From a virus (Duplodnaviria; Heunggongvirae; Uroviricota; Caudoviricetes), in the IMG/VR virus record IMGVR_UViG_2778261152_000005, positions 1 through 57,958 of that record: a DNA stretch of 57,958 bases; one strand, written 5' to 3'. Positions 2,838 through 50,755 of this stretch are shown here, piece after piece (position 1 is the first letter of the stretch; every line of letters starts with the position of its first letter). Below the pieces are notes generated by a model that ran no database searches, had not been told where the DNA came from, and saw only the letters and a list, made by a program, of their open reading frames with translations. The translations under genes and the position numbers were made by a program.

Positions 2838-2872
2838 TTGATTTTAATGGTGCCGATAATAGGAGTAAAACA
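2838..2872. repeat. Attachment-site direct repeat, copy 1, containing the last 19 nt of tRNA-Thr (ptwF-like)
   Basis: TGGTGCCGATAATAGGAGT at 2848-2866 is the reverse complement of the tRNA-Thr(CGU) 3' end; with flanks it repeats at 15535-15563. Confidence 0.7.
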
Positions 2873-2921
2873 CTCGATTAATCTCGTGTTAATGCCATCA
2901 CCTACGACCATTACTAATTGA

Positions 2922-4286
2922 TTGAATCTTATAGAAAAATCATCATTTTCTATGCGTCACAATCAATTTTCACATTACAAACGCTCCGACACTTTAGCCG
3001 GAGATTTTATGAGATACAAGCCTAACCAATACTTAATCTGTGATTCTTACGGTAACTACTATTTAAGGATAACGCTGCCTGTGTATATGCAGCCCTTTTT
3101 TGAAGGAAAAAGGACGTTTGTCAGAAGTCTACACACAAGTAATCTTCGTGTTGCACGTAGAAAGCGTGATCAGATTGCAGATGAATACCATTGCTTACGG
3201 GAGAGTGTCGCCCCTGTAAACAGCACAATAGAAAACACGCTGGAACTGTTACGCAGTAAGGCTAAATACGCCAAAACAGCTACCAGAATGCAAGATACAG
3301 CGTCTTCGTGTCCGTCATTGCTTAAAATTCTTGAAATCTACCTGACAATTAACAGCACGAAGAAGAAGCCAGCCACTTTAGCTAAGGCAAGAAAAGCGGT
3401 AGAGATGTTTCTCTCCTACCGTAAAAAGCCTGATATTGCATTGCAAGATGTAAGCCGCACCACTGTTACAGGCTGGATTGAACACATGCAAAAAACCCTT
3501 TCACAACAATCAATTGCAAATTATATCAGCCCAATGGCCCAGCTATGGGAATTAGCTTCATCACGTTACCACGATGCGCCAGAAAGGGCGCTCTCCCCCT
3601 GGCGAGGGCATAGGCTTGATGTGGCACAAAGTAGAGAGAGCTACGAGGCATTTTCTAACAAAGAGCTATTGCAGGTGTTGCAAGTATTTTCCGGTGATTC
3701 AGCAGAAAACAAAGAAATGATGGCTTTGTGTCTTATCGGTGCCTATACAGGTATGCGGATCAATGAGATAGCAAGTCTCACAATAGACGATGTGAAAGAG
3801 ATCGAAGGTGTGCTGTGTTTTGAAATCACACAGGGAAAGACGAAAGCAGCGGCACGTGTTGTGCCTGTACATAGCCTTATCACTCCGTTGGTGTTGTCGC
3901 TGCGTGAAAAGCCTCACAATGGCTTTTTGTTCTATCACGCCAGCATTACAGAGCGTGCTGATGGTAAACGTTCCACGTGGCATACGCAGAGATTTACAAG
4001 AGCTAAACGAAAGGCTTTAGGGGAAAAGGGAACAGAAAGGAAAGTGTTTCATTCTCTGAGACACGGAGTAGCACAGCTTCTTGATCGAAATCAAATTCCA
4101 GAAGACAGGATCGCCCTTCTCCTGGGCCATACACGCGGCAATACAGAAACATTCCGCACATATAGCAAGAATGCAGCTTCTCCAGTAGAGCTTAAAAAAT
4201 ATATTGAGCTTTTACGCTACCCTGAAATAGAGAAAGGCTTATCAATCAATAAAAAATCAAATTTAAGGCGTAAAACAACACTGTAG
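2922..4286 (+). CDS. Tyrosine-type phage integrase
   Basis: ORF begins 55 bp after the att repeat; catalytic-region motifs …HSLRHGVAQLL… and …LLGHTRGNTETFRTYSK…; listed start is TTG at 2922, alternative ATGs at 2952 and 3009 (the latter with a GGAGA Shine-Dalgarno). Confidence 0.85.
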   Translation: MNLIEKSSFSMRHNQFSHYKRSDTLAGDFMRYKPNQYLICDSYGNYYLRITLPVYMQPFFEGKRTFVRSLHTSNLRVARRKRDQIADEYHCLRESVAPVNSTIENTLELLRSKAKYAKTATRMQDTASSCPSLLKILEIYLTINSTKKKPATLAKARKAVEMFLSYRKKPDIALQDVSRTTVTGWIEHMQKTLSQQSIANYISPMAQLWELASSRYHDAPERALSPWRGHRLDVAQSRESYEAFSNKELLQVLQVFSGDSAENKEMMALCLIGAYTGMRINEIASLTIDDVKEIEGVLCFEITQGKTKAAARVVPVHSLITPLVLSLREKPHNGFLFYHASITERADGKRSTWHTQRFTRAKRKALGEKGTERKVFHSLRHGVAQLLDRNQIPEDRIALLLGHTRGNTETFRTYSKNAASPVELKKYIELLRYPEIEKGLSINKKSNLRRKTTL

Positions 4287-4293
4287 ACGTAAT

Positions 4294-4330
4294 AAAGAGG
4301 CTTCAATATAGACTGATGCCTCTTTTATGA
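4294..4330. terminator. Hairpin terminator between convergent genes
   Basis: AAAGAGGC-(16 nt)-GCCTCTTT stem followed by TTTATGA, placed between int (+) and the 225-aa gene (-). Confidence 0.4.
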
Positions 4331-4366
4331 TTATCTCGTTACAGAGCGTTTCATAGGCGTTTAAGG

Positions 4367-5044
4367 CTATTGTTTAAATACTGGCGTTACAACGTCTTGC
4401 CCTGGGCTTTTTTGATTTTTCTGTTCTGTTGTATTTACCTGCATTTTAACCTGTCCCCCTACAGATTTATTTGGTGCTGTTTTTACCGCAATTGCGCTTG
4501 TAGTTGCTTTAGAGACAAGACGGATTTGCTCAAAATCAAGAGTAAACAATAGGCTTTCGCTTGCTTCTTCTGCGTAAGACATGCCAACTAACACAACGTT
4601 GTCATAATTTTTTAACTCAGTGACAAGTAGGAAAGGTTGGCGACTGTCCATCAACTGATTTAGGTATTCAAGCATAAGCATACGTCGATTGCCGTTAATT
4701 CCCGCATTCTTAATCATATCGGGATTGAGCTTCAATACGGTTTCAGAGATACGCCCTTGTAATGTGAACTTGTTATTCCGTATTTGAACATGATCACTAA
4801 CTTCTGATCCTGATTCGACGGCATAGCTTGTAACGTCTGCATTTCGGCTAACTTTCGTCGATTCCACGCTATCAAATGATAATGCCTGGTAGTCATTGTA
4901 AGCAGCATTTGCACCACTGCCGAGGTTAGAGGTAATGATCGCAAAGCCGTTACCCCCTTTAGTTGTTCTACCGTTGCTATCGTTGCTTGTGCTGTTGATT
5001 TTCGCCTCAGTCGGGCGACCAATGGTTAACGGACCCATTGCCAT
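4367..5044 (-). CDS. Hypothetical protein (225 aa)
   Basis: ORF in a co-directional block with 5092-6933; no recognisable motif. Confidence 0.45.
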   Translation of the reverse strand: MAMGPLTIGRPTEAKINSTSNDSNGRTTKGGNGFAIITSNLGSGANAAYNDYQALSFDSVESTKVSRNADVTSYAVESGSEVSDHVQIRNNKFTLQGRISETVLKLNPDMIKNAGINGNRRMLMLEYLNQLMDSRQPFLLVTELKNYDNVVLVGMSYAEEASESLLFTLDFEQIRLVSKATTSAIAVKTAPNKSVGGQVKMQVNTTEQKNQKSPGQDVVTPVFKQ

Positions 5045-5091
5045 AATTTGTAATCCTTATTTAAGGGGGCTAAACCGCCCCACAGTGATGA

Positions 5092-6933
5092 TTAATAGGT
5101 TGACCCGCCTGACATAACACCCAGCGTTAATAGCTTGCTAAACTCAGCGGAAGATGCCTTTGATTTGAAGTCGATAAATTCGCTCAATCGTCCGGTGTCT
5201 GATTCGATAGTTAGCGGCACTTCTGCATTTACTTGTAATTCTGGATTGAAGTTAATAACAGGTGCAAAGGTGTGGGAAGGAGTCTTGATAGCTTGTTGTG
5301 CTGCACTCTGTTTCAGATTTGCAATGTTTTGTCCTTCGAGAGTGTATTGATTTACAGCCTGCGCCCCGCCTACCGTCTCTTCTGGCGTAAACCAGCCTTT
5401 AATAGTGTTAACCAGGGAATTGCTGTTATCTGGCTTAGTTGTTCCGGTGCCAGCGCCTTTATATTGGTTAGGAGTGAGATTAGAAAGATTCTGCTTCATT
5501 CCTTCGTTAGACAGTGGCGGTGCATCACCTAAATTCTTTTGAATAGCAGCCGTCTTCTCGTCGTTTTTCATCAGCCAGTTGATTGCTTTCATTACAGCGT
5601 TAACCAATCCGCCGATAGCCTCGCCTAATTTGGTAAACATTGGCAGCATTGCAACCATGCTCTTTTTAAACTCTTCAATCACTTTCGGATCAAGAGATTT
5701 CATAAAGCCATCAACAAAGGCGATCCCTTGTGAGTCAGAAAGCCCACTAAGTGCATTATTCAGTTCACGGAATTTAATAACGCTTTCCTGTTGTGCCTGC
5801 GTTACCCAGCGCCCTGATTCTCGTTGTTCTCGTGCTGATTGTTCCACTTCTTTAGCGGAGCGTGTCCAGTATTTAGAGGTGAGCATCAAATCATCAGCCA
5901 GATCTTCCAGACGACTACCGATTTGTGCATCTGAATAGCCTTTAGCTACCATTCCCTGAACTGCTTTACTAACCAGACCAGCCGGATTATCAGCAAAGTC
6001 TTTTAGATCCTTTTTAGTTAGGAATCCTTCATTCATTAAAGTATTGATGCCGCTATCGCCGCCCTTCCATTCTCCTTTACCAGTTTTCTTATCAACTACA
6101 TATTCAGCCTCATCATAAGATTTAGTAGCCTTCTCCCGTACATCTTTCATCTGATCGAGATACTTACGTTTACCTTGTTCGCCCATCATTGAATCAACGC
6201 CGTTTTTATAAGCCCATTGTTCAATATTGTTCATCTGGTTAACGTCTACACCGCCCAGCTTCGCACGGCTATACAATTCACCCAGCGTTTCAGCATTCGC
6301 AAAGCTGTTAGTAACAAATTCAGAGGCTTTGCTCATAGCCATATACGTAGCGCCAGCGCCTAAGCCACCCAGCATAACAGCCGCAGCACCGCCGCCAATA
6401 CTCCCGCTACCCTTAACAGGTGCATAGGCTTTAGCGTGAGCGTTACGATTGCCATTAATCTTACGTTGTTGCTGTTGTAGGCGTTTCATTTGGCTATTCA
6501 TACGTGCCAGACTAATAGCTCCTCTTTCATATTGGAGGGCAATTTCTCTAGCCTGTGCAATAGCTTTATATTGTTCCGCTACAGAAAGACGGTGCATTGC
6601 ACTAATGCTTGATCCAACGTCTAAAAGCTTTAATTCTGCCTTCTCTTTGCGTGCTGCCAGGGCTTTTTGTTCTCTTGCAACTACACGTTGAGCGGCTAAT
6701 TGTGCTTTAGCATTAGCTTTATCAGCCTGTGCTTGCTTTTTAGCAATATCGTCTACGTCTTTTTTTGCTTTAGCGGTTGATTGTTTATGTGTCTTAACAC
6801 GCAATTCTATATCTTTCACCGCCGCCATTTGTTTACGAAGTTTTTCTACTTCTGCTTTTGCTTTCTCTAATGATGGTCGGTTAACTTCGAAGGTGACAAC
6901 GTTCGAGAGGCGTGCCACGTTTAGCTCTAACAT
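5092..6933 (-). CDS. Coiled-coil protein with central Gly/Ala-rich hydrophobic segment, tape-measure-like (613 aa)
   Basis: N-terminal Lys/Ala/Gln-rich coiled-coil region, then …GSGSIGGGAAAVMLGGLGAGATYMAM…; function not established. Confidence 0.5.
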   Translation of the reverse strand: MLELNVARLSNVVTFEVNRPSLEKAKAEVEKLRKQMAAVKDIELRVKTHKQSTAKAKKDVDDIAKKQAQADKANAKAQLAAQRVVAREQKALAARKEKAELKLLDVGSSISAMHRLSVAEQYKAIAQAREIALQYERGAISLARMNSQMKRLQQQQRKINGNRNAHAKAYAPVKGSGSIGGGAAAVMLGGLGAGATYMAMSKASEFVTNSFANAETLGELYSRAKLGGVDVNQMNNIEQWAYKNGVDSMMGEQGKRKYLDQMKDVREKATKSYDEAEYVVDKKTGKGEWKGGDSGINTLMNEGFLTKKDLKDFADNPAGLVSKAVQGMVAKGYSDAQIGSRLEDLADDLMLTSKYWTRSAKEVEQSAREQRESGRWVTQAQQESVIKFRELNNALSGLSDSQGIAFVDGFMKSLDPKVIEEFKKSMVAMLPMFTKLGEAIGGLVNAVMKAINWLMKNDEKTAAIQKNLGDAPPLSNEGMKQNLSNLTPNQYKGAGTGTTKPDNSNSLVNTIKGWFTPEETVGGAQAVNQYTLEGQNIANLKQSAAQQAIKTPSHTFAPVINFNPELQVNAEVPLTIESDTGRLSEFIDFKSKASSAEFSKLLTLGVMSGGSTY

Positions 6934-6967
6934 GCTAATTGTTTCCCTGTATTATGATTGTTGTTTG

Positions 6968-7165
6968 TTATTGTTTTTTAGAGCAATAATATTGGATTGC
7001 TTCGAAAGTGCTACATCCAGTCTGAAAGACACGCTGACGCACATTATTTGCATCAATTGAAAGCATTCTGCATAAGGCACTGACATTGATTATTGAGTCA
7101 TCGCTAATAGCTGCCAGTTCTTTTACAGATTTAAGAATTAATGCCTGTGAATTTTCTGTATTCAT
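6968..7165 (-). CDS. Hypothetical small protein (65 aa)
   Basis: ORF between two larger co-directional genes. Confidence 0.3.
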   Translation of the reverse strand: MNTENSQALILKSVKELAAISDDSIINVSALCRMLSIDANNVRQRVFQTGCSTFEAIQYYCSKKQ

Positions 7166-7318
7166 TGGTTTTCTCTCACATATATATTTTTATTTGGGTT
7201 TGTAGACAGTAGAAAAACAAAAAGGGCAAAGAGATTCGTTACTGTATTTGCGCCTACAGGTTAGTTAATCCCTTTACCATTATTTTCCAGACGATGGGAA
7301 TCGTCTATTAATGCTTTA

Positions 7319-8350
7319 TTACGCAGCAGATCCGAAGATGATAGCTTGCGGAATGTTGTTTACTGGCAGATAAGATGTCTCAGTAACCACAGATGGGAAT
7401 TGGAATTCATCCTTGATTAGATATTGGTGATGCAACACGGCATCTTGACCTAACTCAGCATGACGCACACCAACGCCGCTATGAAGCTGGTAACACTGTG
7501 CCGCTTTATCCATTACCGGGACAATTGCGAAACCGTTCTCTCCGATGTGAGCAACAATCTCAGGAAACATTGACACATCAATAACAGTGATCCCACCAAT
7601 CTGGAAAGAGTCATAGGCTGGGTTAGAATCAACCATACGGGTAAACAGGGCCGTAGCACTCGCATCGCCTGCATATTTCACCATGTCACTGATCAGCGGG
7701 TTAGATGACAAACCATCAGCAGCAGCGCCAGCAGCAAAGATAATTACACCAGTTCGCTTTGCAGCAAGACCAGACCCCAGCTTTTCACTCTGTAAGCGCA
7801 CCGCTTTACGAATAGCAAGGAACGGGTTAACAGTAGTCGATGCAAAGTCGATAGCGGGTACCGTGGTTTTAGCCTGACCGTCGAGGAAGTCGAGATCACC
7901 TTGTCCGGCATATTCAGATTCAACTTTCAGTCCCAGCAGCGCGGTAATCAGATCCACTTCAACACGGTTTGCGTGTGAACGGTAATGAGCCTCAGAGAAA
8001 TCATTAACCGCTACCAGCATAGCATCAGAACGGTTTGGATATTGGCGGCTGTATTGTTCCAGGTCACGAGAAGTAACAGCGTTAATACTGCCGACGTGTT
8101 TCATCTGGAAAAGTTTGTTTGACCATTCCTGACGTTTAGAAGCGTTCCAGTTGCTTTGAGTGTAAGGCGAGGTTTCCCCGGCTACCTGCACAAACTGCTC
8201 AATCAGGTCGGTAAGAAGAATGCTGTTTTCTGTATGATATTGCACATCGAACAGATCGAGATTAGTAATCAGGGTATTAAGTGCATTCTCATAAGCAAAT
8301 GGAGTTACTACCGCAGTATTAACGCCAAAATATGTTGATAAATCATTCAT
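7319..8350 (-). CDS. Hypothetical protein (343 aa), possibly structural
   Basis: Long ORF with no NTPase motif; co-oriented with 8365-8748; capsid-like role is a guess. Confidence 0.5.
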   Translation of the reverse strand: MNDLSTYFGVNTAVVTPFAYENALNTLITNLDLFDVQYHTENSILLTDLIEQFVQVAGETSPYTQSNWNASKRQEWSNKLFQMKHVGSINAVTSRDLEQYSRQYPNRSDAMLVAVNDFSEAHYRSHANRVEVDLITALLGLKVESEYAGQGDLDFLDGQAKTTVPAIDFASTTVNPFLAIRKAVRLQSEKLGSGLAAKRTGVIIFAAGAAADGLSSNPLISDMVKYAGDASATALFTRMVDSNPAYDSFQIGGITVIDVSMFPEIVAHIGENGFAIVPVMDKAAQCYQLHSGVGVRHAELGQDAVLHHQYLIKDEFQFPSVVTETSYLPVNNIPQAIIFGSAA

Positions 8351-8364
8351 TATTATTTTCCTTG

Positions 8365-8748
8365 TTAAGTCGTAGGGATCGCAAGTTCTTCATAACCAGC
8401 AATTACAAAGCCGAGAGATTGCAGTTTTGCAATAACACTTGCCTTTTCCATGCTGTTAAATTCAATCCCATCTTCAGCCAGAATAACGAAAGTAGGATGT
8501 GCAACCACTACGCTTTCCTGTCCTTCATAAGCCGGTTCAACTACTACGTGAGCAATATCAGAAGCGGTTGTTGCTTTGGTGCCATCGGCTTTCAGCAAAG
8601 CCCCGACAATAAGATCGTCAGTGAGAGGTGAAGCCAGTTTGACGAGGCGATCTTGCAGCACTGGATCAGCAGCGTAAGCTACTACCTTACAGCGTGAACG
8701 GGAGTTATCCGCATTCACTGCTTTTAATTTTCCATATGGGTTAGCCAT
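8365..8748 (-). CDS. Hypothetical protein (127 aa)
   Basis: ORF ending 15 bp before the 343-aa gene start, same strand; AT-rich probable promoter region upstream. Confidence 0.45.
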   Translation of the reverse strand: MANPYGKLKAVNADNSRSRCKVVAYAADPVLQDRLVKLASPLTDDLIVGALLKADGTKATTASDIAHVVVEPAYEGQESVVVAHPTFVILAEDGIEFNSMEKASVIAKLQSLGFVIAGYEELAIPTT

Positions 8749-9945
8749 AAGATTATTTTCCTTTCAGTTGTTTAATTTTAGATTTAAGGGCATCAGCAAG
8801 ACTAACCGCATCAGCCGATTTAAATAATTGAGCAGTGGTAGAACGAAGACTTTCGGGAGTAACTCACAACAGTGCGGCAACCTTAATGAGGTTTTCATCA
8901 CTAACAATCATCGTTTCCCCGTCTTTGCTGATAATCATTTCTTGTTTCATAAATAACGTTCCTGTTAGTGCCAGACAAATAAAAAGCCCCAATGCCGTAA
9001 GAGGTTAATTCTGACCAGCAAAGGGGCTTTAACGTGCGGGCAATTACATAATTGATAAGTTAAACTATAAGAGGATTAAACATATCAGCAAATACACTTT
9101 TTAAATATACTTGATGATATGCTTAAAGAGTGAATATCAGACCTTAGAAAGGAAGGCTCTTAGGAGTTTGCCACTGGAATCACTAAGATCTGATATTCTG
9201 GGTGCGGGGGGCTAACCGCTGCCTGTTTTTGCTGTGGATGCAACAAAGTAAGGCTGTAAGGAATCACTATTCCAATTCTCATCTACTCACAGATCAAATT
9301 TTAATAGGATTAACTACACCAACAGTAATCTACCGTTTCAGAAAATCGTTTTTACAACCAAAGCTTATAGATCCGCATTCTATAAAACCCGTTTTGCTAT
9401 CAATATTTCCAAAGGTTATTGCACAATTCTTAGCTAAACTCTCTCTGCTTGCGGCTAACGCTATGCAGATGATTGTTTTTGACAACAACTTAATAGATTA
9501 TTCTGTTACTAACTTCTGTCATTAAATAAGAGTTTAATGATGTTAGTAAATAGTTATAAAATATAACTATCAGTGTAAGGCTCTTTAATGTTTTCGGACA
9601 AAATAAGGAGCTTTAGGATAAGCATAGATGAAAAATAAGAGCGGGAAGGGCAAGGAGATAACACCTACCCACCTTTATCAAAATTAAGCACAATGCCTAA
9701 CAACATTCATCAACACAACGTAGAAACAATCAACAATCAAAGAGGGAGTTATGATTATTCTAAAACTTCTTGAGAGATGGAAGGTAATATTTGTTAGAGG
9801 TTAATGCCACTCAACCCTTGAGGCTATCACCTTCCATATGCAGGGATTTATGACAATAGAAGGATTAACGCCAACTAAAATCTTTTTATCTATCCCTAAA
9901 ATTATTATATAACAAAATCATTATAAATGCAAATGATTTTCATTA

Positions 9946-10257
9946 TCATTTAGAGAAAATAGCACTTTTTGCTAAATCATCTACTAATTGCTGAATCTCT
10001 TCACTTGTAGCCTTTAACGTGCGGGCGGTGTCTGTGATAGTTCGAGTGCACAGCTTGGCATCGTCCTCAGATAGCTGCTCTAAATCGCTCACCAGAGAGA
10101 TAAAATCGTCAAGGCTTACATTCACCTTCATTAAGCTAATTACGCATTGAGAGAGCGTGTAATCGCATAAATCTGAATAGGCTTGATTGATACGTGTCTG
10201 TAGGGTGATCATCCGATCCGAAAGAGTGTCCATAACTTCCAGAATGTTGTCTGTCAT
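9946..10257 (-). CDS. Hypothetical acidic protein (103 aa)
   Basis: Start overlaps the stop of the upstream ORF (10254-10257); AT-rich. Confidence 0.4.
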   Translation of the reverse strand: MTDNILEVMDTLSDRMITLQTRINQAYSDLCDYTLSQCVISLMKVNVSLDDFISLVSDLEQLSEDDAKLCTRTITDTARTLKATSEEIQQLVDDLAKSAIFSK

Positions 10258-10484: not shown

Positions 10485-10542
10485 TATTTTTCCTTTTTCG
10501 AATATTTTTCATTGGGCGCTTATACATACGCCCGTCATTTTA

Positions 10543-11655: not shown

Positions 11656-11684
11656 GCTCTACGGCGCTACTATGGTGATAAAAA

Positions 11685-11855: not shown

Positions 11856-11876
11856 AGTTTTCTCCTTCTCCTGTTA

Positions 11877-42011: not shown

Positions 42012-42013
42012 TT

Positions 42014-43315: not shown

Positions 43316-43330
43316 TTAAGGAACGACTCC

Positions 43331-43879
43331 ATGAAAATTAAACTGAACAATGTCCGCCTGGCCTTCCCTGCTCTGTTTGAAGCAAAAACCGTGAACGGCG
43401 AAGGCGACCCGCGCTTCTCTGCTGTTTTCCTGATGGATCCGAAACATCCGCAACTGGATGAAGTCCGCAAAGCGCTTAAGCAGGTGGCGAAGGAAAAATG
43501 GGGTGAGAAGTGGGAAACCATTTACAACCAGCTGGAGAAAAAGCTCAACCTCTGCCTGCATGACGGTGACGAGAAAGCCGAATACGAAGGCTTCCCGGGT
43601 AACTTCTTCCTGAACGCTGCCAACAAAGCGCGCCCGGCGGTTATCGATCGCGACCGTTCTCCGCTAATCCAGGCTGATGGCCGTCCTTACGCCGGTTGCT
43701 ACGTCAACGCGGTGATCGACATCTGGGCGCAGGACAACAACTTCGGCAAACGTGTTAACGCATCGCTGGGTGGAGTCCAGTTCCTGCGCGACGGTGACGC
43801 CTTCGCTGGCGGCGGTGTTGCTGCCCCTGACGACTTCGACGACATCAGTGAAGGCGCTGACGCCGACGCACTTATTTAA
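43331..43879 (+). CDS. DUF2815-like phage ssDNA-binding protein
   Basis: MKIKLNNVRLAFPALFEAKTVNGEGDPRFSAVFL… pattern; paired with DUF2800 and PolA genes. Confidence 0.55.
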   Translation: MKIKLNNVRLAFPALFEAKTVNGEGDPRFSAVFLMDPKHPQLDEVRKALKQVAKEKWGEKWETIYNQLEKKLNLCLHDGDEKAEYEGFPGNFFLNAANKARPAVIDRDRSPLIQADGRPYAGCYVNAVIDIWAQDNNFGKRVNASLGGVQFLRDGDAFAGGGVAAPDDFDDISEGADADALI

Positions 43880-43912
43880 CCCAATCCATCTCTGACTCAC
43901 CTAGGACTGAAT

Positions 43913-44056
43913 ATGGACAATTACACGCTAACTGAAGACCAGGCAATCGCGCTACGAAACTTTATCGGGGAGTACTGGACCGATTTCCTTCAGAGCACCA
44001 GCTTAACAGAAGCGGAAGCCGAAACCCTTTACGAAGCCCTCGGCGGCGAAAACTAA
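43913..44056 (+). CDS. Hypothetical small protein (47 aa, not in ORF track)
   Basis: ATG with AGGA upstream, in the gap between the DUF2815 and polymerase genes. Confidence 0.25.
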
Positions 44057-44132
44057 TCCACACCCACCCGGCCATGCGCCGGGTGTTTTGCAAAGAGCCT
44101 CCCTTTTCGCAAAGCACCCGCGAGGAATATCT

Positions 44133-46199
44133 ATGCCTGAAACCATTCTCTGGGGCGACCTGGAAACCTATTGCGAGATACCCATCACGAACGGCACGCA
44201 CGCTTATGCGGAAGGTGTCGAAGTGATGTTGTTTGCCTGGGCCATCGGCGACGAGCCGGTTAGCGTCTGGGATCTGATTGCTGGCGAACCTATCCCCAGC
44301 AGGCTGCGGAAGGCCATTGCCGATCCCGACACTCTGCTTTATTTCCACAATTCACATTTTGACCGTACGGTGCTGCGCCATGCAATGCCGGAGCTGGCGC
44401 CGGACGTTACCCGCTGGCACGACACGATGGTGCAGGCGCTGGCGCACAGCCTCCCCGGCGCGCTGGGGGCACTCTGTGAGGTGCTGGGCGTACCGCAGGA
44501 CAAGGCGAAGGACAAAGAAGGTAAAGCACTGATTCAGCTGTTCTGTAAGCCACGTCCGAAGAACAGCAAGCTGCGCCGCGCAACCAGCAAAACGCACCCG
44601 GTAGAGTGGCAGAGGTTCGTTGCCTACGCCGGGCTGGATATCGAGGCGATGCGCGAAGTTTATAAGCGGCTACCGAAGTGGAACTATCAGGGCGCCGAGC
44701 TGGCGTTATGGCATCGTGACCAGCGGATCAACGACCGCGGCGTATGCATGGATGTGCAGCTCGCACAGGCCGCCATCGAAGCGGTAGACCTTGAACAGAA
44801 AAGGCTGGCAAAGCGCACGCAGGTGATGACCGACGGCGAAGTACAGGCGGCCACACAGCGCGATGCGATGATTAAGCACATTGTCGAATCGTACGGCGTC
44901 GAGCTGCCGGATATGCAGCGCAGCACGCTGGAACGTCGCATCGCCGACCCTGACCTGCCGTCACCGGTGAAAGAGCTGCTGGCTATCCGCCTGCAGGCCA
45001 GCACCACGAGCACCAGTAAGTACAAATCGCTGATGAAGGGTATCAGCAGCGACGGGCGTCTGCGCGGTACGCTGCAATTCTGCGGCGCATCGCGTACCGG
45101 GCGCTGGGCCGGGCGGTTATTCCAGCCCCAGAACCTGCCCCGCCCGACGCTTGAGCAGGAACGCATCGATGAAGGCATCGAGGCGCTTAAATCCGGCTGC
45201 GCCGATCTGCTTTTCGATAATGTCATGGAGCTGACCAGTTCGGCGCTGCGCGGTTGCATTATGGCGCCGGCGGGTAAAAAGCTGGTTGTATCTGACCTGT
45301 CGAACATCGAAGGCCGAAAGCTGGCCTGGCTTGCCGGTGAGCAGTGGAAACTTGACGCATTCCGGCAGTACGACGAGGGCACTGGCCCCGACCTTTATAA
45401 GCTGGCCTACGCCAAAGCATTCAACATCACCCCGGAAGAAGTGACCAAATATCAGCGCCAGATAGGCAAGGTGATGGAACTGGGCCTCGGGTTTGGTGGA
45501 GGTGTCGCGGCGTTCCTGACCTTCGCACTGGTTTACGGCCTCGATCTTGAGGAACTGGCAACCGCAGCGCTGCCGAATATCCCGCGCGATGTGCGGCGCG
45601 AGGCTCAGAGCTGGTATGACGAATCGGTTAAACGCAAAGCGACGTATGGGCTATCGGAGCGCGTATTCATCGCTTGCGATTCGCTTAAGCGCCTGTGGCG
45701 CCGGGCACACCCGAAAACCTGCGATTTCTGGTACCAACTCGAGCGCACTGTCCGTGCCGCTATTGTCACCCCTAAGAAAACACTCTATTGCGGCTATCTG
45801 AAAGTGCGCCGCGATGGCGCATGGCTGCGTATCCAGTTGCCGTCCGGGCGCGCACTCTGCTACCCGTCGCCGTCGATTGAGAAAGGAAATATCACCTACA
45901 TGGGGATTAACTCCTACTCGCGGAAATGGCAACGGCTCAAAACCTACGGCGGAAAGCTGGTCGAAAACGTAACACAGGCCGCCGCCCGCGACGTTCTGGC
46001 CGGGAACATGCCGCTGATCGAGGATGCCGGTTACAGCATTGTGCTGACGGTACACGATGAAGTGATCACCGAAGCGCCGGACACTGACGATTTCAACGAT
46101 AAAGCACTCTCCGCGCTGCTCTCCACTAACCCCGAATGGGCGCCCGATATCCCGCTGAACGCTGGCGGCTTCGAGGCGTATCACTACCGTAAGGATTAA
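44133..46199 (+). CDS. Family A DNA polymerase (3'-5' exonuclease plus polymerase)
   Basis: Start at ATG 44133 with GAGGA upstream; N-terminal exonuclease-like …[11 protein letters not shown]… and later …HDEVITEAP…; track ORF begins at 44088. Confidence 0.7.
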
Positions 46200-46204
46200 T
46201 CGCT

Positions 46205-46417
46205 ATGGCACAAGGTAACGTAGAAAATTTCGCAATCATTGTGTTAGTCAACGGCCGCACATCACAGGTCGAACTAACAACATCGCAAAAACGTTTGTTC
46301 GCAAAGTTAACACTCGGCGCGCTCAACGATAGTGGCCCTCTGAAACTTATGCCAATCGACGACATGGTCCAGTTACAACCCGACACCGAAGCATTTTCAG
46401 ACGGTGATCCGCTATGA
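46205..46417 (+). CDS. Hypothetical small protein
   Basis: Tightly packed; stop overlaps next start. Confidence 0.4.
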   Translation: MAQGNVENFAIIVLVNGRTSQVELTTSQKRLFAKLTLGALNDSGPLKLMPIDDMVQLQPDTEAFSDGDPL

Positions 46418-46626
46418 AATTCATTTTTATGGTGATGGATAGTCGTGCGCAGTTCGATATCGACAGCGCCGCCATTCTGGAATGCTGCGGCGATAAACAA
46501 CCCACCTGGCGCACTCTGCGCAGAGACTGGGGTGATCAGGGCGCAGTTCTGGTCCGCTTTCGTCTGGTACCAAACACTAACAGCGAAGTCGCTACCGACC
46601 CCGAAGTTGTCGGCACCATCAACTGA
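46414..46626 (+). CDS. Hypothetical small protein
   Basis: Overlapping start/stop with the upstream gene. Confidence 0.4.
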   Translation: MKFIFMVMDSRAQFDIDSAAILECCGDKQPTWRTLRRDWGDQGAVLVRFRLVPNTNSEVATDPEVVGTIN

Positions 46627-46637
46627 GGTAACCCCCT

Positions 46638-46856
46638 ATGGCATTTAAGTATCGGGACAGTCCGCTTTATTACCGGACTGCGCGGGAGGCTTTGCGCCTT
46701 GAGCAGTCCGGCGAGTATGACCGGGCGGCAAAAGTCTGGGCCAAAGCAAACCGCGAATCACGTAACGAACTGAATCAGGACTGGAGCGAACGCCGGTCTG
46801 ATTTTTGCCTGATGCAGAACATGCGCGAAAAGCGTAAGGCGGTGGACGATGCCTAA
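46638..46856 (+). CDS. Hypothetical small protein
   Basis: ORF overlapping the next gene start. Confidence 0.4.
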   Translation: MAFKYRDSPLYYRTAREALRLEQSGEYDRAAKVWAKANRESRNELNQDWSERRSDFCLMQNMREKRKAVDDA

Positions 46857-47043
46857 CATCGACAACAAGGGGTGGGGTTTTCCCGCTCTGTCGAAAAAAG
46901 CGCATTTCTTTAATTCGGGGGAAGCCATATCACTATGCGGTAAATGGATGTTCACCGGCATCAGGATTGATGAATGGCATGAACACCCTGAGAACTGCGC
47001 TACCTGCATGAAGAAACGCAAAAAACAGGAAGGCGAAAAATAA
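46849..47043 (+). CDS. Hypothetical small Cys-containing protein (possible zinc ribbon)
   Basis: …SLCGKW…ENCATCMKK…. Confidence 0.4.
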   Translation: MPNIDNKGWGFPALSKKAHFFNSGEAISLCGKWMFTGIRIDEWHEHPENCATCMKKRKKQEGEK

Positions 47044-47312
47044 TGGCTTACGAACGTGAAAGCCTCATCGAAAAGCACCTCGTCGCCGAAGTGAAAAAGT
47101 CTGGCGGGGTCGCCTTTAAGTTCGTTTCACCCGGTCGCCGCTCGGTACCGGATCGCATTGTCCTGCTACCCGGCGGCCGCCTCGTTTTCGTTGAATGCAA
47201 AGCACCCGGCAAAGCACCACGCGCCGACCAGCTGCGCGAGCACGAACGATTGCGCGCGCTGGGCTTTACCGTGGTGGTGTTGGATAGCAAAAATCTGGAG
47301 GGGATATTGTGA
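47043..47312 (+). CDS. VRR-NUC domain nuclease
   Basis: …SVPDRIVLLPGGRLVFVECKAPGKAPRADQLREHERLRALGFTVVVL… carries the PD-(D/E)xK D…E-C-K arrangement typical of VRR-NUC. Confidence 0.65.
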   Translation: MAYERESLIEKHLVAEVKKSGGVAFKFVSPGRRSVPDRIVLLPGGRLVFVECKAPGKAPRADQLREHERLRALGFTVVVLDSKNLEGIL

Positions 47313-47815
47313 ATCTTCCGGCCATTCTCGACATGTGCTGCGGTTCTCGTATGTTTTGGTTTAACAAAAGCGACCCGCGCGCCGTGTATTTGGATGCCCG
47401 TAGCGAGTCACACGTGCTTTGCGATAACAGGAAGTTGGAGATTCGCCCGGACGTACTCGGTGATTTCAGACAGTTGCCATTTGCCGACGGTCAATTTTTA
47501 CAGGTGATATACGATCCCCCTCATCTGCGCCGCGCCGGGCCTAACGGCTGGATGCGAAAAAAGTATGGCCAGTTGGATAAAGAGAACTGGCGTGAAGATC
47601 TTCGCGCAGGATTCGCAGAAGCATTTCGCGTGCTGGCACCCGGCGGCACGTTAATTTTCAAATGGAATGCTACGCAGATCCCTGTCCGCCAAATTATAGA
47701 ATTAACCGACCAGCAACCTACTATCTGGCAACGCACTGGCAAAGCAGATAAAACCCACTGGATAGTATTTTTAAAAGCCGTAGAGGGGTACCAGAACGGA
47801 TATGACCTCATCTAA
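47309..47815 (+). CDS. Putative small DNA methyltransferase (DPPH motif)
   Basis: …LDMCCGSRMFW… then …VIYDPPHLRR…; unusually short (168 aa), so assignment is tentative. Confidence 0.45.
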   Translation: MNLPAILDMCCGSRMFWFNKSDPRAVYLDARSESHVLCDNRKLEIRPDVLGDFRQLPFADGQFLQVIYDPPHLRRAGPNGWMRKKYGQLDKENWREDLRAGFAEAFRVLAPGGTLIFKWNATQIPVRQIIELTDQQPTIWQRTGKADKTHWIVFLKAVEGYQNGYDLI

Positions 47816-49202
47816 AATTTTCACCCCCCGCCCTTATCAAGACCTCATCATCAACCACGAAATCGACATCCTGCGCTGCAACATCTGGGCGGGCATGGGC
47901 ATGGGTAAAACCGTGGCGACGCTCACCACGCTGGAAGATCTCTTTATGGCGGGCGCAGAGACTCAGCCCGCGCTGGTTCTCGCGCCGCTGCGCGTGGCGG
48001 CCAGCACCTGGCCGGATGAAGCGGTTAAATGGGGGCATCTGCGCAATATCGAGGTACAGCCGATTGTTGGTAATGCCAAAGCGCGCGCGGCAGCGCTGGC
48101 GAACAGCAACGCCAGCGTGTTTACCATCAACTACGACAATCTGGTCTGGCTGGTGGAAGAACTGGGCGGCCGCTGGCCGTTCGGTACCGTTATCCCCGAC
48201 GAAAGCACCCGGCTGAAATCCTTCCGGCTGCGCGGTGGCGGTAAGCGCGCGGCGGCGCTGGGCAAAGTGGCACATAAACATATCCGACGCTGGATGAATC
48301 TCACTGGTACGCCAGCGCCAAACGGCCTGGTGGATTTGTGGGGGCAGGCGTGGTTTGTGGATCAGGGGCAGCGCCTCGGGCGAACTTACGGCGCGTTTAC
48401 CTCCCGCTGGTTCAACTCAATACAGTTTCCGGGGCAGAGCTGGACGAAGCTGGAACCGTTCACCCATTCGCAGGACGAAATACAGCGGGCACTGGCCGAC
48501 GTCACTATCTCCCTGGACGCCGCCGACTGGTTCGATATCAAAGAGCCTATCCATAACGTGATCCGCGTAGACATGCCGCCGAAGGCTCGCCAGCAGTATC
48601 GTGAAATGGAAAAGGAAATGTTCCTCGAGCTGAACGGCGAAGGCATCGAAGCGCCTAACGCCGCGGCAAAAACGGTGAAGTGTCTGCAAATCGCCAGCGG
48701 CGCGGTGTACACCGACGACGCCGGGAGCTGGTCAGAACTGCACGACGCGAAGCTGCAGGCGCTGGACAGTATTCTCACCGAAGCAGCTGGCGCGCCGGTA
48801 CTGGTGGCCTACCACTGGAAACACGACCTCGAGCGTTTGCTTAAAGCATTCCCTCGCGGTCGCCACCTCGACCAGGATCCACAGACGCTGCGCGACTGGA
48901 ACGCCGGAAAGATACCGGTTCTGTTCGCACACCCGGCCAGCGCAGGCCACGGCCTGAATATGCAGGACGGTGGCAACATATTGGTGTTTTTCTCGCACTG
49001 GTGGGACCTGGAACAGTACCAGCAAATTATCGAACGCATCGGTCCAACCCGGCAGATTCAGGCCGGACACAACCGCCCGGTGTTCATTCACCACATTATC
49101 GTCGCCGACACTATGGACGAAATGGTGATGGAACGCCGCAACTCAAAACGAACAGTGCAGGACATCCTGCTCGATGCCATGAAAAAGAGAGGTATAGCAT
49201 GA
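47802..49202 (+). CDS. SNF2-family superfamily-2 helicase
   Basis: …GMGMGKTVATL… Walker A and …VIPDESTRLK… DExx box. Confidence 0.7.
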   Translation: MTSSKIFTPRPYQDLIINHEIDILRCNIWAGMGMGKTVATLTTLEDLFMAGAETQPALVLAPLRVAASTWPDEAVKWGHLRNIEVQPIVGNAKARAAALANSNASVFTINYDNLVWLVEELGGRWPFGTVIPDESTRLKSFRLRGGGKRAAALGKVAHKHIRRWMNLTGTPAPNGLVDLWGQAWFVDQGQRLGRTYGAFTSRWFNSIQFPGQSWTKLEPFTHSQDEIQRALADVTISLDAADWFDIKEPIHNVIRVDMPPKARQQYREMEKEMFLELNGEGIEAPNAAAKTVKCLQIASGAVYTDDAGSWSELHDAKLQALDSILTEAAGAPVLVAYHWKHDLERLLKAFPRGRHLDQDPQTLRDWNAGKIPVLFAHPASAGHGLNMQDGGNILVFFSHWWDLEQYQQIIERIGPTRQIQAGHNRPVFIHHIIVADTMDEMVMERRNSKRTVQDILLDAMKKRGIA

Positions 49203-49387
49203 CACCGGTTATCTCTGACACTGACCTGATTAACATCAAAGAGGTTGAGCGCTCTGTTGGCCTGAAAAAATCCAGCATTTATGAGCGCATCAGTAATAAC
49301 GAGTTTCCGAAGCCTAAGAAGCTCGGGAGCCGAACCTCCCGCTGGGTACGCGGCGAGGTCGAAGAGTGGAAAAAACAGTTTCTTTAA
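49199..49387 (+). CDS. AlpA-family transcriptional regulator / excisionase
   Basis: 62 aa, …LINIKEVERSVGLKKSSIYERISNNEFPKPKKLGSRTSRWVRGEVEEW…; convergent with the integrase. Confidence 0.7.
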   Translation: MTPVISDTDLINIKEVERSVGLKKSSIYERISNNEFPKPKKLGSRTSRWVRGEVEEWKKQFL

Positions 49388-50646
49388 ATCAAACGAAGCT
49401 GGTCAATATAATCCGCATACCACTGCATCATTTCCCGACGCCCTTCCATATACAGGGCATGGTTATAAACCCCGCGTATATTGTTCTTGTCCACGTGGGC
49501 GATCTGGAGTTCAACCCAGTCAGAGTTGAATCCTTTATCGTTCAGGATAGTGCTGAACGTATGCCGGAAGCCATGCCCTACTACCCTCCCCTTATACCCC
49601 AGCGTGTGGATCATCCTGTTTATTGTGTTCTCGCTCATGACCTTTGACGGGTCATTCCTGCCGGGGAACATATTCACGTATCGACCTGTCAGCCCGTGCA
49701 GTTCTTTTAGCAAGACGACAAGCTGATCGGAAAGAGGTACCAGGTGCGGGCGGTCCATCTTCATAAATTCGGCGGGTATCTCCCACAGCCGATTATCGAA
49801 ATCTACCCATTCCCATTTTGAATGCCGCAGTTCGTAAGTACGCAGCCCCGCCAGCATCATGATCTGCAACCCCAGCCGGGGCAGCGGGCTCCCCTTGTAA
49901 CTCTCAAGCGCCGCGAGAAAATCAGGCAGTTCCTCCGCCGTCAGGAACGGGAAGGACTCTCCTTTATGCCCGGTCATTGCGCTATTCAGTTCGCTGACGG
50001 GGTTATACTTCGCGCGCCCAGTCGCAACTGCATAGCTGAATACTTCACCGCACCACCGGCGCGTTTTGGCTGCTTTCTCGGTTGCGCCGCGATTCTCAAT
50101 TTTGCGCAGTGCCCTCAGCATCTGGACAGGCTCGATTTCAGCAACTGGCAGCTTACCCACCGCTGGGAAAATATCTTTGTTGAATGCTTCGAGAATGTCA
50201 GAGGCATAGCCAGGCGACCAGCGCGGCTTCTTGAATTCATGCCATTCTATCGCGATCTCTTTTAACGTGATCGTCTTTACTGCCGCAGCTGCGGCATGGC
50301 TTTTGACTTTTACCGGGTCAACACCTGCCGCAACGTTACGCCGGGCCTCGTCGCGTTTTTCGCGAGCGGCCGCCAGCGAAACAGCCGGGTATACCCCGAG
50401 CGCCAGCATCTTTTCTTTACCGGCGAAAGTATAGCGATAGCGCCAGTATTTTGCCCCGCTGGTTTTCACCAGCAGGATAAGCCCGTTGCCGTCTGGCAGC
50501 TTATAGTCTTTCTCGGCAGGCTTTGCCGTCTCGACCTGTCGCGCGTTTAGTTTCATAGGTACCCGCCTCAAACTCAGATACCCGATTATGTACCCGTTTT
50601 TAATTTGGATTGCAACGGCAAAAGGTGGATTATGGCGGACAAACAA
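49384..50646 (-). CDS. P4-type tyrosine integrase
   Basis: 420 aa; N-terminal arm-binding pattern (…LPDGNGLILLVKTSGAKYWRYRYTFAGKEKMLALGVYP…) and C-terminal …GHGFRHTFST…; next to the tRNA-Thr 3' fragment. Confidence 0.85.
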   Translation of the reverse strand: MFVRHNPPFAVAIQIKNGYIIGYLSLRRVPMKLNARQVETAKPAEKDYKLPDGNGLILLVKTSGAKYWRYRYTFAGKEKMLALGVYPAVSLAAAREKRDEARRNVAAGVDPVKVKSHAAAAAVKTITLKEIAIEWHEFKKPRWSPGYASDILEAFNKDIFPAVGKLPVAEIEPVQMLRALRKIENRGATEKAAKTRRWCGEVFSYAVATGRAKYNPVSELNSAMTGHKGESFPFLTAEELPDFLAALESYKGSPLPRLGLQIMMLAGLRTYELRHSKWEWVDFDNRLWEIPAEFMKMDRPHLVPLSDQLVVLLKELHGLTGRYVNMFPGRNDPSKVMSENTINRMIHTLGYKGRVVGHGFRHTFSTILNDKGFNSDWVELQIAHVDKNNIRGVYNHALYMEGRREMMQWYADYIDQLRLI

Positions 50647-50709
50647 AACGCCTAATATGGCGAATTTAAAGGAAAAATGGAGGACTAAGGATGTTAGCGG
50701 ATTAAAAAA

Positions 50710-50755
50710 TGGTGCCGATAATAGGAGTCGAACCTACGACCTTCGCATTACGAAT
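50710..50755 (-). other. tRNA-Thr(CGU) 3' fragment (46 nt, anticodon loop to CCA), attachment core, not an intact tRNA
   Basis: Reverse complement ATTCGTAATGCGAAGGTCGTAGGTTCGACTCCTATTATCGGCACCA matches the 3' part of thrW from memory; the expected 5' D-arm half is absent. Confidence 0.75.

What the first reader, a model, noticed from the sequence alone, without database searches (positions are those of the whole stretch)
2848..50755. Three copies of the tRNA-Thr 3' end mark tandem integrations; the intact tRNA is not in the window
Copies at 2848 (19 nt), 15539 (19 nt) and 50710 (46 nt) share orientation. The 46-nt copy beside integrase B lacks the tRNA 5' half, implying a further element integrated to its right. 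The left junction (yagP, 19-nt fragment, integrase) matches my memory of the CP4-6 edge in E. coli K-12, but the cargo here is different.
Basis: partly seen in the sequence, partly recalled or inferred. Interest (0 to 1): 0.55.

Follow-up and report, generated by a model that had tools for sequence, protein, structure and literature searches.

The report
Three mobile elements stacked at thrW
The three repeats are leftover 3' pieces of the E. coli threonine tRNA gene thrW, each marking the edge of a separate island or prophage inserted one after another at this well-known hotspot, so the finding is real but ordinary.

Summary
TGGTGCCGATAATAGGAGT, the reverse complement of the thrW 3' end, occurs exactly at 2848, 15539 and 50710. 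The third copy runs to 46 nt, and the window holds no tRNA.

The window is the E. coli paoCD-yagP side of the thrW-proA locus. It carries a head-to-tail array:
- **Element A** (2867-15538): a 12.7-kb phage-like island with its own tyrosine integrase.
- **Element B** (15558-50709): a 35-kb temperate podophage with a P4-type integrase and an AlpA excisionase.
- **Element C** (from 50756): the far end of a lambdoid prophage.

The 46 nt are letter for letter the published attP core of phages SfI, SfII, SfV, SfX and P22.

Other genomes hold every predicted intermediate form:
- empty site, in 948 of 5,426 complete genomes
- A alone, B alone, and C alone
- A|C, in 25 complete genomes
- a near-identical A|B followed by intact thrW-proA

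The window ends at the end of its source contig, so thrW and C's integrase cannot be reached there.

The K-12 CP4-6 comparison holds only for the chromosomal flank. K-12 has a 49-nt fragment, an unrelated integrase and different cargo.

Tandem arrays at tRNA genes, including thrW, are already described. Interest is low.

The parts
1..2847 (+). Chromosomal flank on the distal side of thrW: the paoC 3' part, paoD (1376-2332) and the yagP LysR-type remnant (about 2383-2721). It ends ...ctctttgattttaa, directly before copy 1.
   Evidence: 99.9% identical to K-12 across 102-2866. Annotated as paoC, paoD and a LysR fragment in matching genomes. The same flank abuts intact thrW in empty sites.
2848..2866 (-). 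Copy 1: the 19-nt thrW 3' fragment (tRNA positions 58-76, from the T loop to CCA). It is the distal boundary of element A. It lies inside a 30-nt repeat (2844-2873) shared with copy 2.
   Evidence: The junction is identical in c1-17 (L003:6149) and in Escherichia sp. E1V33 (L013).
2867..15538 (.). Element A: a 12.7-kb, low-GC (34-45%) integrative element of phage ancestry. Contents:
- IntA, 3009-4286 (+)
- Dit-like tail protein, 4367-5044 (-)
- tape-measure-like protein, 5092-6933 (-)
- weak major-head-like protein, 7319-8350 (-)
- O-like HTH protein, 11062-11655 (-)
- serine invertase, 13672-14229 (+)
   Evidence: It is present as a single unit between yagP and intact thrW in c1-17. At least 80% of it is covered in 111 complete genomes, and those matches stop exactly at 15557.
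3009..4286 (+). IntA, a 425-aa tyrosine recombinase with DUF6538, a SAM-like domain and the Phage_integrase domain. It sits 140 nt from copy 1, at the tRNA-distal end of A, and is transcribed inwards.
   Evidence: Pfam, PHROG integrase. Unrelated to IntB. 24% identical to K-12 IntF, in the catalytic domain only.
15539..15557 (-). Copy 2: the 19-nt thrW 3' fragment at the A|B junction. It is the distal boundary of element B.
   Evidence: In c1-17 the same A right end is followed by intact thrW (L003:18683). The identical A|B junction occurs in L015, L017 and L020.
15558..50709 (.). Element B: a 35.2-kb prophage that looks complete, a temperate podophage with T7-like virion genes. Contents:
- lysis genes, 15785-16680
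- O-acyltransferase, 17052-18041
- tail fibre, 18094-20034
- TerL, 20055-21665
- internal virion proteins, 22065-27676
- tail tube proteins, 28600-31153
- capsid, 31211-32203
- portal, 33400-35025
- VapE primase-helicase, 36554-38260
- DUF2800 protein, 42014-43315
- PolA, 44088-46199
- SNF2 helicase, 47802-49202
- AlpA and IntB (listed separately)
   Evidence: PHROGs and Pfam and gene calls. 85%-identical relatives sit in dusA with a different integrase. A B-like remnant sits alone at thrW in EC2.
49199..49387 (+). AlpA-family excisionase/regulator of element B (62 aa).
   Evidence: Pfam PF05930, E = 7e-14. Called as a gene in five assemblies.
49384..50556 (-). IntB, a 390-aa P4/IntS-type tyrosine integrase (Arm-DNA-bind_3, Phage_int_M, Phage_integrase). 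It is co-directional with thrW and starts 153 nt from copy 3.
   Evidence: The identical protein lies next to intact thrW-proA in GCA_015675075.1. The nearest match in the phage collection is 48% identical.
15617..15634 (+). Two TACCCG motifs in B's left arm (at 15617 and 15629). With three more at 50560, 50579 and 50591 in B's right arm, they are candidate arm-type IntB binding sites.
   Evidence: five same-strand copies lie within about 200 nt of B's ends, against a background of 0.6 per kb, and none lie at A's ends. Their function is inferred, not tested.
50710..50755 (-). Copy 3: the 46-nt thrW 3' fragment (tRNA positions 31-76, from the anticodon loop to CCA) at the B|C junction. It is the distal boundary of element C. 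Its first 19 nt also act as B's proximal repeat.
   Evidence: It is the exact reverse complement of the 46-base attP core printed for SfI/SfII/SfV/SfX/P22 in PMC3636060.
50756..57958 (.). The distal 7.2 kb of element C, a lambdoid prophage cut off by the contig end. Contents:
- phage attP arm, 50756 to about 50948
- transposase (rve_3) fragment, about 51018-51176
- IS1, 51150-51917
- 1182-aa ORF of unknown function, 52231-55779
- hexapeptide acetyltransferase, 56339-56884
- tail-fibre assembly gene, 56895-57467 (-)
- tail-fibre gene 3' part, 57467-57958 (-)
   Evidence: In VTB97432v the same left end belongs to a ~49-kb prophage that ends xis-int-thrW-proA. The EC96 integrase is 99.5% identical to the SfII/SfIV/phi458 Int.

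Best explanation
The window is the yagP-proximal part of an occupied thrW integration hotspot in E. coli. The source is draft assembly GCA_002462895.1, contig NKEV01000021.1. Three independent elements, each with its own tyrosine integrase, lie head to tail: yagP | 19 | A | 19 | B | 46 | C ... (thrW-proA lies beyond the contig end).

Each element carries a copy of the tRNA 3' segment in its attP. Integration recombines this copy with the gene. That rebuilds a complete thrW at the proA-side end and leaves the displaced old 3' segment at the far end. The fragment length therefore reports where the integrase crosses over.
- A and B cross over at the T-loop / T-stem subsite, which leaves 19 nt.
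- C crosses over in the anticodon loop, which leaves 46 nt. C is an SfII/SfV/P22-type lambdoid phage.

A 19-nt fragment has no anticodon loop. C must therefore have entered a full thrW, or possibly a 46-nt fragment.

The simplest history is A, then B, then C, each entering the regenerated tRNA.

Shown: the repeats, all the junctions, the intermediate forms and the integrase families. Inferred: which integrase made each junction, the order of events, and that thrW is intact beyond the contig end in this strain.
For: **The repeats are real and the tRNA is absent.** The repeats are exact and not due to chance. The window has no tRNA.

**Each junction half recurs in the predicted partner form** (junction table):
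- empty site yagP-flank+thrW+proA, 100% identical to a synthetic junction, in 948 of 5,426 complete genomes
- A alone in c1-17
- a B-like remnant alone in EC2, and near-identical B directly beside yagP in GCA_004380855.1 and SRR33442627
- C alone in EC96 and VTB97432v, ending xis-int-thrW-proA
- the A|C junction in 25 complete genomes
- A|B at 99.99% identity over 20.5 kb, plus B followed by an intact tRNA-Thr(CGU) and proA, in GCA_015675075.1

**Each element has its own recombination module.**
- IntA is next to copy 1, and IntB plus AlpA are next to copy 3.
- The integrase of C-type prophages is 98-99.7% identical to the Int of SfI, SfII, SfIV and SfV.

**The C junction matches a characterised phage site.**
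- The 46 nt equal the experimentally defined attP core of those phages and P22 (PMC3636060).
- The adjoining arm is 100% identical to phi458 over 50708-50800 and 92% identical over 242 nt.

**The phenomenon is documented.**
- Tandem integration at thrW was produced in the laboratory with SfX and then SfI (PMC3306764).
- The fragment-plus-integrase rule for tandem arrays is the basis of the Islander database (PMC4383910).
Against: - The intact thrW, C's integrase and C's completeness are not observable for this strain, because the contig ends inside C's tail-fibre gene.
- No reconstructed attP circle junction for A or B was found in viral or metagenome contigs. Present-day excision of A and B is therefore not shown directly.
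- The junctions do not fix the order of integration.
- IntA and IntB are unrelated, yet their attP cores share 26 nt (19 + AAAACAC). The simple model does not explain this.
Confidence: 0.9

Rival explanations
1. The array is the same but the history differs. At least one element entered a displaced tRNA fragment (a pseudo-attB) rather than the intact gene. Two examples: B inserted into the 46-nt fragment of an existing A|C array, or A inserted into the yagP|19+AAAACAC|B junction of a B lysogen.
For: - A|C arrays without B occur in 25 complete genomes.
- Genomes with a 100%-identical flank and 99.99%-identical B, but no A, exist (L016, L019).
- The 46-nt fragment keeps the whole T arm, so it could still serve a T-loop integrase.
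- A's two flanking repeats are identical over 30 nt including AAAACAC. B's left junction would therefore offer IntA a site that matches its own attP core.
- All orders give the same final junctions (reasoned).
Against: - The near-isogenic genome GCA_015675075.1 has A|B followed directly by intact thrW. This is the intermediate expected if C came last, into the intact gene.
- Independent lysogenisation of empty and A-carrying strains by B explains the genomes that have B without A.
- In the one experimental case, SfI entered at the attL site of resident SfX, that is an existing att junction that the paper does not orient relative to thrW (PMC3306764).
- A 19-nt fragment lacks the 5' T-stem arm that a normal attB would supply.
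Confidence: 0.25
2. The 46-nt copy is a thrW gene truncated by the neighbouring transposase fragment or IS1 (by deletion or rearrangement). On this reading it is not the edge of another integrated element, and the strain may have lost thrW.
For: An rve_3 transposase remnant and an IS1 lie 260-440 nt to the right of the fragment. No tRNA is present in the window.
Against: - The break falls exactly at the end of the published 46-nt phage core.
- The sequence that follows it is phage attP arm, not IS DNA.
- The same 46 nt plus arm sit next to yagP in EC96 and VTB97432v, where an intact thrW lies at the other end of the prophage.
- The IS1 begins only at 51150.
Confidence: 0.03
3. The array is an assembly artefact: contigs were wrongly joined through the repeated tRNA fragment.
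For: The source is a short-read draft, and the contig breaks in a repeated tail-fibre gene.
Against: - The repeats (19-46 nt) are shorter than typical reads.
- The A|B junction recurs with identical sequence in at least three other assemblies (L015, L017, L020).
- The B|C contig is recorded for two samples.
- Every junction half is confirmed in closed genomes.
Confidence: 0.02

Closest known systems
Serotype-converting and P22-like phages integrating at thrW (SfI, SfII, SfIV, SfV, SfX, P22/L; also phi458), including the laboratory-made SfX-SfI tandem lysogen
   Same: - The 46-nt core is identical (PMC3636060).
- The attP arm is homologous.
- The integrase of the same prophage type in EC96 is 98-99.7% identical to the Sf Ints and 90% identical to phage L Int.
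- The integrase and the accessory genes lie at opposite prophage ends.
- Tandem occupancy of thrW is documented (PMC3306764).
   Different: - The accessory region next to the att site carries an IS1, a 1182-aa ORF of unknown function and an acetyltransferase, not gtrABC.
- The body of the prophage is lambda-like, with J, Lom and tail fibres.
- The array partners here use a different crossover subsite (19 nt), not a second 46-nt phage.
Cryptic prophage CP4-6 of E. coli K-12 (thrW ... intF, thrW fragment, yagP)
   Same: - Same hotspot.
- Same chromosomal flank, to the base (99.9% over 102-2866).
- A tyrosine integrase sits just inside the yagP-side fragment and reads inwards.
   Different: - The K-12 fragment is 49 nt (anticodon-stem crossover), not 19.
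- IntF and IntA share only 24% identity over 136 residues.
- Nothing else is shared except IS1.
Tandem arrays of genomic islands at tRNA genes, as catalogued by Islander (Hudson, Lau and Williams 2015, PMC4383910)
   Same: Each unit has its own displaced tDNA fragment, in the tRNA's orientation, and its own integrase. Fragment lengths fall into the two recognised subsites, anticodon loop (A) and T-stem region (J).
   Different: Arrays of three or more were uncommon in that survey: 4, against 125 arrays of two or more, among 3,919 islands. This array mixes both subsites. Neither the A|B nor the B|C junction appears in any of 5,426 complete E. coli genomes.
P4/IntS-type integrases with AlpA-type excisionases (P4, CP4-57, HK633/CUS-3 IntS)
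   Same: IntB has the same domain architecture. It sits immediately downstream of the tRNA gene, is co-directional with it, and has an adjacent AlpA gene. It leaves a short core of about 20 nt at the tRNA 3' end.
   Different: IntB is at most 48% identical to any integrase in the phage collection. It targets thrW. It is carried by a T7-like-virion temperate podophage whose closest relatives use a DusA-specific integrase at the opposite genome end.

Membership tests
tRNA-gene integrative element (island or prophage) in a tandem array | Direct repeats that are 3' segments of the target tRNA gene, in the tRNA's orientation | tested here: met
   Three exact copies on one strand, of 19, 19 and 46 nt, identical to the thrW 3' end.
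tRNA-gene integrative element (island or prophage) in a tandem array | Each unit has its own integrase gene next to one of its ends | tested here: met
   IntA is at 3009-4286 and IntB at 49384-50556. The integrase of C lies outside the window but is present in the same prophage type in EC96 and VTB97432v.
tRNA-gene integrative element (island or prophage) in a tandem array | An intact target tRNA is regenerated at the proximal end of the array | not testable with these tools
   The window ends at the contig end. Intact thrW does follow A in c1-17, B in GCA_015675075.1 and EC2, and C in EC96 and VTB97432v.
tRNA-gene integrative element (island or prophage) in a tandem array | Presence/absence polymorphism with a precise empty site | tested here: met
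   A synthetic empty junction matches 948 of 5,426 complete genomes at up to 100% identity. Single and double occupancy forms were also found.
tRNA-gene integrative element (island or prophage) in a tandem array | Excision to a circle carrying the reconstituted attP | tested here: inconclusive
   The predicted attP junctions of A and B are absent from the viral and metagenome contig collections. Absence there does not exclude excision.
SfII/SfV/P22-type thrW integration module (element C) | 46-nt common core ATTCGTAATGCGAAGGTCGTAGGTTCGACTCCTATTATCGGCACCA | tested here: met
   Window 50710-50755 is its exact reverse complement.
SfII/SfV/P22-type thrW integration module (element C) | Phage arm sequence adjoining the core | tested here: met
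   Window 50708-50800 is 97-100% identical to SfII, SfIV, SfV and phi458. 242 nt are 92% identical to phi458.
SfII/SfV/P22-type thrW integration module (element C) | Int and Xis of that family at the thrW-proximal end | not testable with these tools
   This end lies outside the window. In EC96, the prophage with the identical left end has an Int 99.5% identical to the SfII Int.
CP4-6 prophage of K-12 | IntF integrase | tested here: not met
   IntA against IntF: 24% identity over 136 aa, E = 5e-5.
CP4-6 prophage of K-12 | 49-nt thrW fragment at the yagP side | tested here: not met
   K-12 has 49 nt. The window has 19 nt followed by AAAACAC.
CP4-6 prophage of K-12 | Location between thrW and yagP | tested here: met
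   The flank is 99.9% identical up to and including the first 19 nt of the fragment.
CP4-6 prophage of K-12 | CP4-6 gene content | tested here: not met
   blastn of the window against K-12 258000-300000 finds only the flank, the tRNA piece and IS1.
P4/IntS-type integrase (IntB) | Arm-DNA-bind_3 + central domain + catalytic domain, with an adjacent AlpA-type excisionase | tested here: met
   Pfam E-values from 4e-27 to 4e-30 for the N-terminal and central domains. AlpA E = 7e-14. NCBIfam PRK09692 scores below its cutoff.

The most novel reading that the evidence does not exclude
A and B have unrelated integrases, but their attP cores share 26 nt (19 nt of tRNA plus AAAACAC). A is therefore flanked by perfect 30-nt repeats in this array. 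The shared extension might be functional att-site mimicry. It would let IntA use the junction left behind by a B-type phage as a high-affinity secondary attB, or the reverse. Islands would then stack and unstack next to each other without needing the tRNA gene itself. That could explain the near-isogenic genomes that differ only by A.
Probability: 0.12. Interest if true: 0.45.

Novelty: already known. Interest (0 to 1): 0.2.

Why it matters
The window is a clean worked example of how a tRNA hotspot accumulates mobile DNA, and every intermediate form can be found in public genomes. It also shows that fragment length (19 versus 46 nt) reveals which class of integrase made each junction. It adds no new principle.

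Three practical points follow:
- It maps the exact ends of a temperate podophage that looks intact, has a thrW-specific P4-type integrase, and has no integrase match above 48% identity in the phage collection.
- The prophage and island boundaries here can be annotated to the base.
- Comparison with K-12 CP4-6 should not be made from position alone.

Tried and rejected
- **Reaching thrW on the source contig.** This is impossible. L008 shows the window's right end is position 1 of NKEV01000021.1.
- **Looking for circularised attP junctions.** I searched IMG/VR and the metagenome contigs for the A and B junctions and found none.
- **Testing whether 19+AAAACA is widespread.** A scan of the species-representative genomes gave only two hits, Shigella flexneri (a B-type left end) and Escherichia sp. 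E1V33 (an A-type left end). This says little about where the shared 7-mer came from.
- **Testing whether A is a decayed IntB-type island.** tblastn found no IntB-like pseudogene at A's thrW-proximal end. A's ends also lack the TACCCG motifs that flank B. Rejected.
- **Testing whether IntA is K-12 IntF.** Rejected.
- **Scanning for defence functions.** PADLOC on A's cargo and on the 1182-aa ORF gave nothing significant.
- **Searching for the same array in closed genomes.** None of 5,426 complete E. coli genomes holds the A|B or B|C junction.


Full report
**1. Observation**

The 19-mer TGGTGCCGATAATAGGAGT occurs exactly three times in the window, at 2848, 15539 and 50710. All three are on the + strand. 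No other copy appears within three mismatches, and shuffled sequence gave none.

Intact thrW genes read from other E. coli genomes show that this 19-mer is the reverse complement of the last 19 nt of tRNA-Thr(CGU). The tRNA sense is therefore the minus strand.

The third copy continues as tRNA sequence for 46 nt (50710-50755), back to tRNA position 31 at the edge of the anticodon loop, and then diverges. Copies 1 and 2 are identical over 30 nt: TTAA, the 19-mer and AAAACAC (2844-2873 = 15535-15564).

The window holds no tRNA gene.
- ARAGORN finds none.
- Rfam has no hit at gathering score, and the tRNA model reaches 14.2 of the required 29 bits at the 46-nt copy.
- The thrW 5' half is absent.

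**2. Where the window comes from**

- Bases 1-2866 are 99.9% identical to the K-12 paoC-paoD-yagP flank. Thousands of E. coli genomes share this flank.
- The window is the reverse complement of the first 57,958 nt of contig NKEV01000021.1, from draft assembly GCA_002462895.1.
- Its right end is the end of that contig, inside a tail-fibre gene.

**3. Anatomy**

*Element A (2867-15538, 12.7 kb, 34-45% GC).*
- It starts 140 nt after copy 1 with IntA, a tyrosine recombinase carrying DUF6538, a SAM-like domain and the catalytic domain.
- It also carries phage-like genes: a Dit-like tail protein, a tape-measure-like protein, a weak major-head match, an O-like HTH protein and a serine invertase.

*Element B (15558-50709, 35.2 kb).*
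- It looks like a complete temperate podophage with T7-like virion genes: tail fibre, TerL, internal virion proteins, tail tube proteins, capsid and portal.
- Its replication module includes VapE, DUF2800, an ssDNA-binding protein, PolA and SNF2.
- It also has a LexA-like repressor, an AlpA excisionase (49199-49387) and a P4/IntS-type integrase, IntB (49384-50556, minus strand).
- IntB lies immediately downstream of the tRNA copy and is co-directional with it. This is the classic arrangement.
- Five same-strand TACCCG motifs cluster in B's two ends and nowhere near A's ends. They are candidate arm sites (inferred).

*Element C (from 50756).*
- It begins with about 190 nt of phage attP arm. This arm is 100% identical to phi458 and 97-99% identical to SfII, SfIV and SfV across 50708-50800. 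It is 92% identical to phi458 over 242 nt.
- Next come a transposase remnant, an IS1, a 1182-aa ORF of unknown function, an acetyltransferase, a tail-fibre assembly gene and the cut tail-fibre gene.

**4. Junction test**

If the array arose by serial site-specific integration, each junction half should recur elsewhere joined to its other natural partner. All of them do.

| Form | Where found |
|---|---|
| Empty site: yagP flank + intact thrW + proA | 948 of 5,426 complete genomes, at up to 100% identity to a synthetic junction (e.g. ATCC 8739) |
| A alone, followed by intact thrW | c1-17 |
| B-like remnant alone, with its integrase beside intact thrW | EC2 |
| Near-identical B directly beside yagP, without A | GCA_004380855.1, GCA_025949865.1, SRR33442627 |
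| C alone | EC96 (remnant); VTB97432v (full ~49-kb lambdoid prophage ending xis-int-thrW-proA) |
| A\|C junction | 25 complete genomes |
| A\|B, then B followed by intact tRNA-Thr and proA | GCA_015675075.1 |

In GCA_015675075.1 the A|B region has only 2 mismatches in 20,540 nt against the window. On another contig of the same assembly, B's right end is 99.9% identical to the window.

No complete genome contains the A|B or the B|C junction. The triple array is therefore uncommon, although each of its components is not.

**5. Mechanism**

Each element carries the tRNA 3' segment in its attP. Recombination with thrW rebuilds the gene at the proA side and displaces the old 3' segment to the far side. 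Fragment length reports the crossover subsite.
- The 46 nt are the exact reverse complement of the core determined experimentally for SfI, which is identical in SfII, SfV, SfX and P22 (PMC3636060).
- The integrase of the same prophage type in EC96 is 99.5% identical to the SfII Int and 90% identical to phage L Int.
- The 19-nt fragments start in the T loop (position 58). This is the T-stem-region subsite in the Islander classification (PMC4383910).

A 19-nt fragment lacks the anticodon loop, so C must have entered a full thrW or a 46-nt fragment. The near-isogenic A|B|thrW genome fits an A, then B, then C history. The junctions themselves, however, fit any order in which displaced fragments can serve as targets. 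I keep that possibility as a rival (confidence about 0.25).

**6. Comparison with what is known**

- thrW is one of the most used tDNA hotspots in E. coli (PMC7545054).
- Tandem lysogeny at thrW has been produced experimentally with SfX and SfI (PMC3306764).
- Islander formalises tandem arrays as units that each have a fragment and an integrase. It counted 125 arrays of two or more and 4 of three or more.
K-12's yagP-side fragment is 49 nt. IntF is only 24% identical to IntA, and only in the catalytic domain. No cargo is shared. Only the location and the flank agree.
- B's relatives at 85% identity use a DusA-specific integrase at the opposite genome end. B is therefore the same phage type with a swapped integration module. 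IntB has no match above 48% identity in the phage collection.

**7. Unexplained detail**

IntA and IntB are unrelated. Even so, both elements begin AAAACAC immediately after the 19 nt. B-type relatives in EC2 and Shigella flexneri have AAAACAA at the same place.

A has no IntB-like pseudogene and none of B's TACCCG motifs, so it is not a decayed B-type island. The shared extension could reflect att-site mimicry, common descent of the cores, or chance. This remains open, and it is the basis of the low-probability novel case.

**8. Verdict**

It is a textbook tandem array at a tRNA hotspot: already known in kind, with modest local interest. That interest lies in the triple array, the mixed crossover subsites, and a podophage with mapped ends that is absent from the phage collection. 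Interest is 0.2.

Noticed in passing
window 2844-2873 and 15535-15564: The repeats flanking element A are identical over 30 nt (TTAA + 19 + AAAACAC). The 7-nt extension is not tRNA sequence. A's and B's left ends share it although their integrases are unrelated. B-type relatives (EC2 L005:15172; S. flexneri L012:387) have AAAACAA at the same place.
   Followed up: partly
window 15617, 15629, 50560, 50579, 50591: Five same-strand TACCCG motifs cluster within about 150 nt of both ends of prophage B. One group overlaps the intB start region. They look like arm-type integrase binding sites. None lie at the ends of A.
   Followed up: partly
window 52231-55779 (+): A 1182-aa ORF in the accessory region of the lambdoid prophage, next to IS1. 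It has no Pfam, NCBIfam or PADLOC match. Its only hit is a PHROG of unknown function (phrog_18693). It is conserved at 99-100% DNA identity in EC96, VTB97432v and other genomes.
   Followed up: partly
window 4367-8350: Element A is only 12.7 kb but carries Dit-like, tape-measure-like and weak major-head-like genes, an O-like HTH protein and an invertase. It could be a decayed siphophage or a satellite-like element. Its function and mobility are untested.
   Followed up: partly
window 15558-50709; L004 (STEC383): Prophage B's closest relatives in complete genomes (85% identity) sit in dusA, with a DusA-type integrase next to the lysis genes. B instead has a P4-type integrase at the other genome end and sits in thrW. 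This is a clear swap of integration module within one phage type.
   Followed up: partly
window 17052-18041 (+): An Acyl_transf_3 O-acyltransferase is encoded on the opposite strand between B's lysis genes and tail fibre. It is probably a surface-modifying accessory (lysogenic conversion) gene.
   Followed up: no
window 15513-15788 (-): The last lysis-region ORF of B (about 90 aa) reads across the 19-nt repeat into A's right end. Its C-terminus therefore depends on what lies beside the prophage: 90 aa in A|B genomes and 91 aa in yagP|B genomes.
   Followed up: no
L014 (phage phi458, OP434518.1) 461-535: The deposited 'complete genome' of phi458 contains about 75 nt of the E. coli yagP flank directly beside its 46-nt att core. 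The record appears to have been cut from a prophage with a host flank included.
   Followed up: no
L006 (K-12) 39163-39255, minus strand: The yagP-side thrW fragment in K-12 is 49 nt, which matches the annotated CP4-6 start 49 nt inside thrW. At least three different crossover positions (19, 46 and 49 nt) are therefore in use at this one tRNA gene in E. coli.
   Followed up: yes
window 15440-15538; L001 21743-21841: The thrW-proximal ends of A and of C-type prophages imitate the native sequence downstream of thrW (…TTATTGATTT…AA, against the chromosomal …CTTTGATTTTAA). The attP homology therefore extends a little beyond the tRNA 3' end. B's end does not show this.
   Followed up: no
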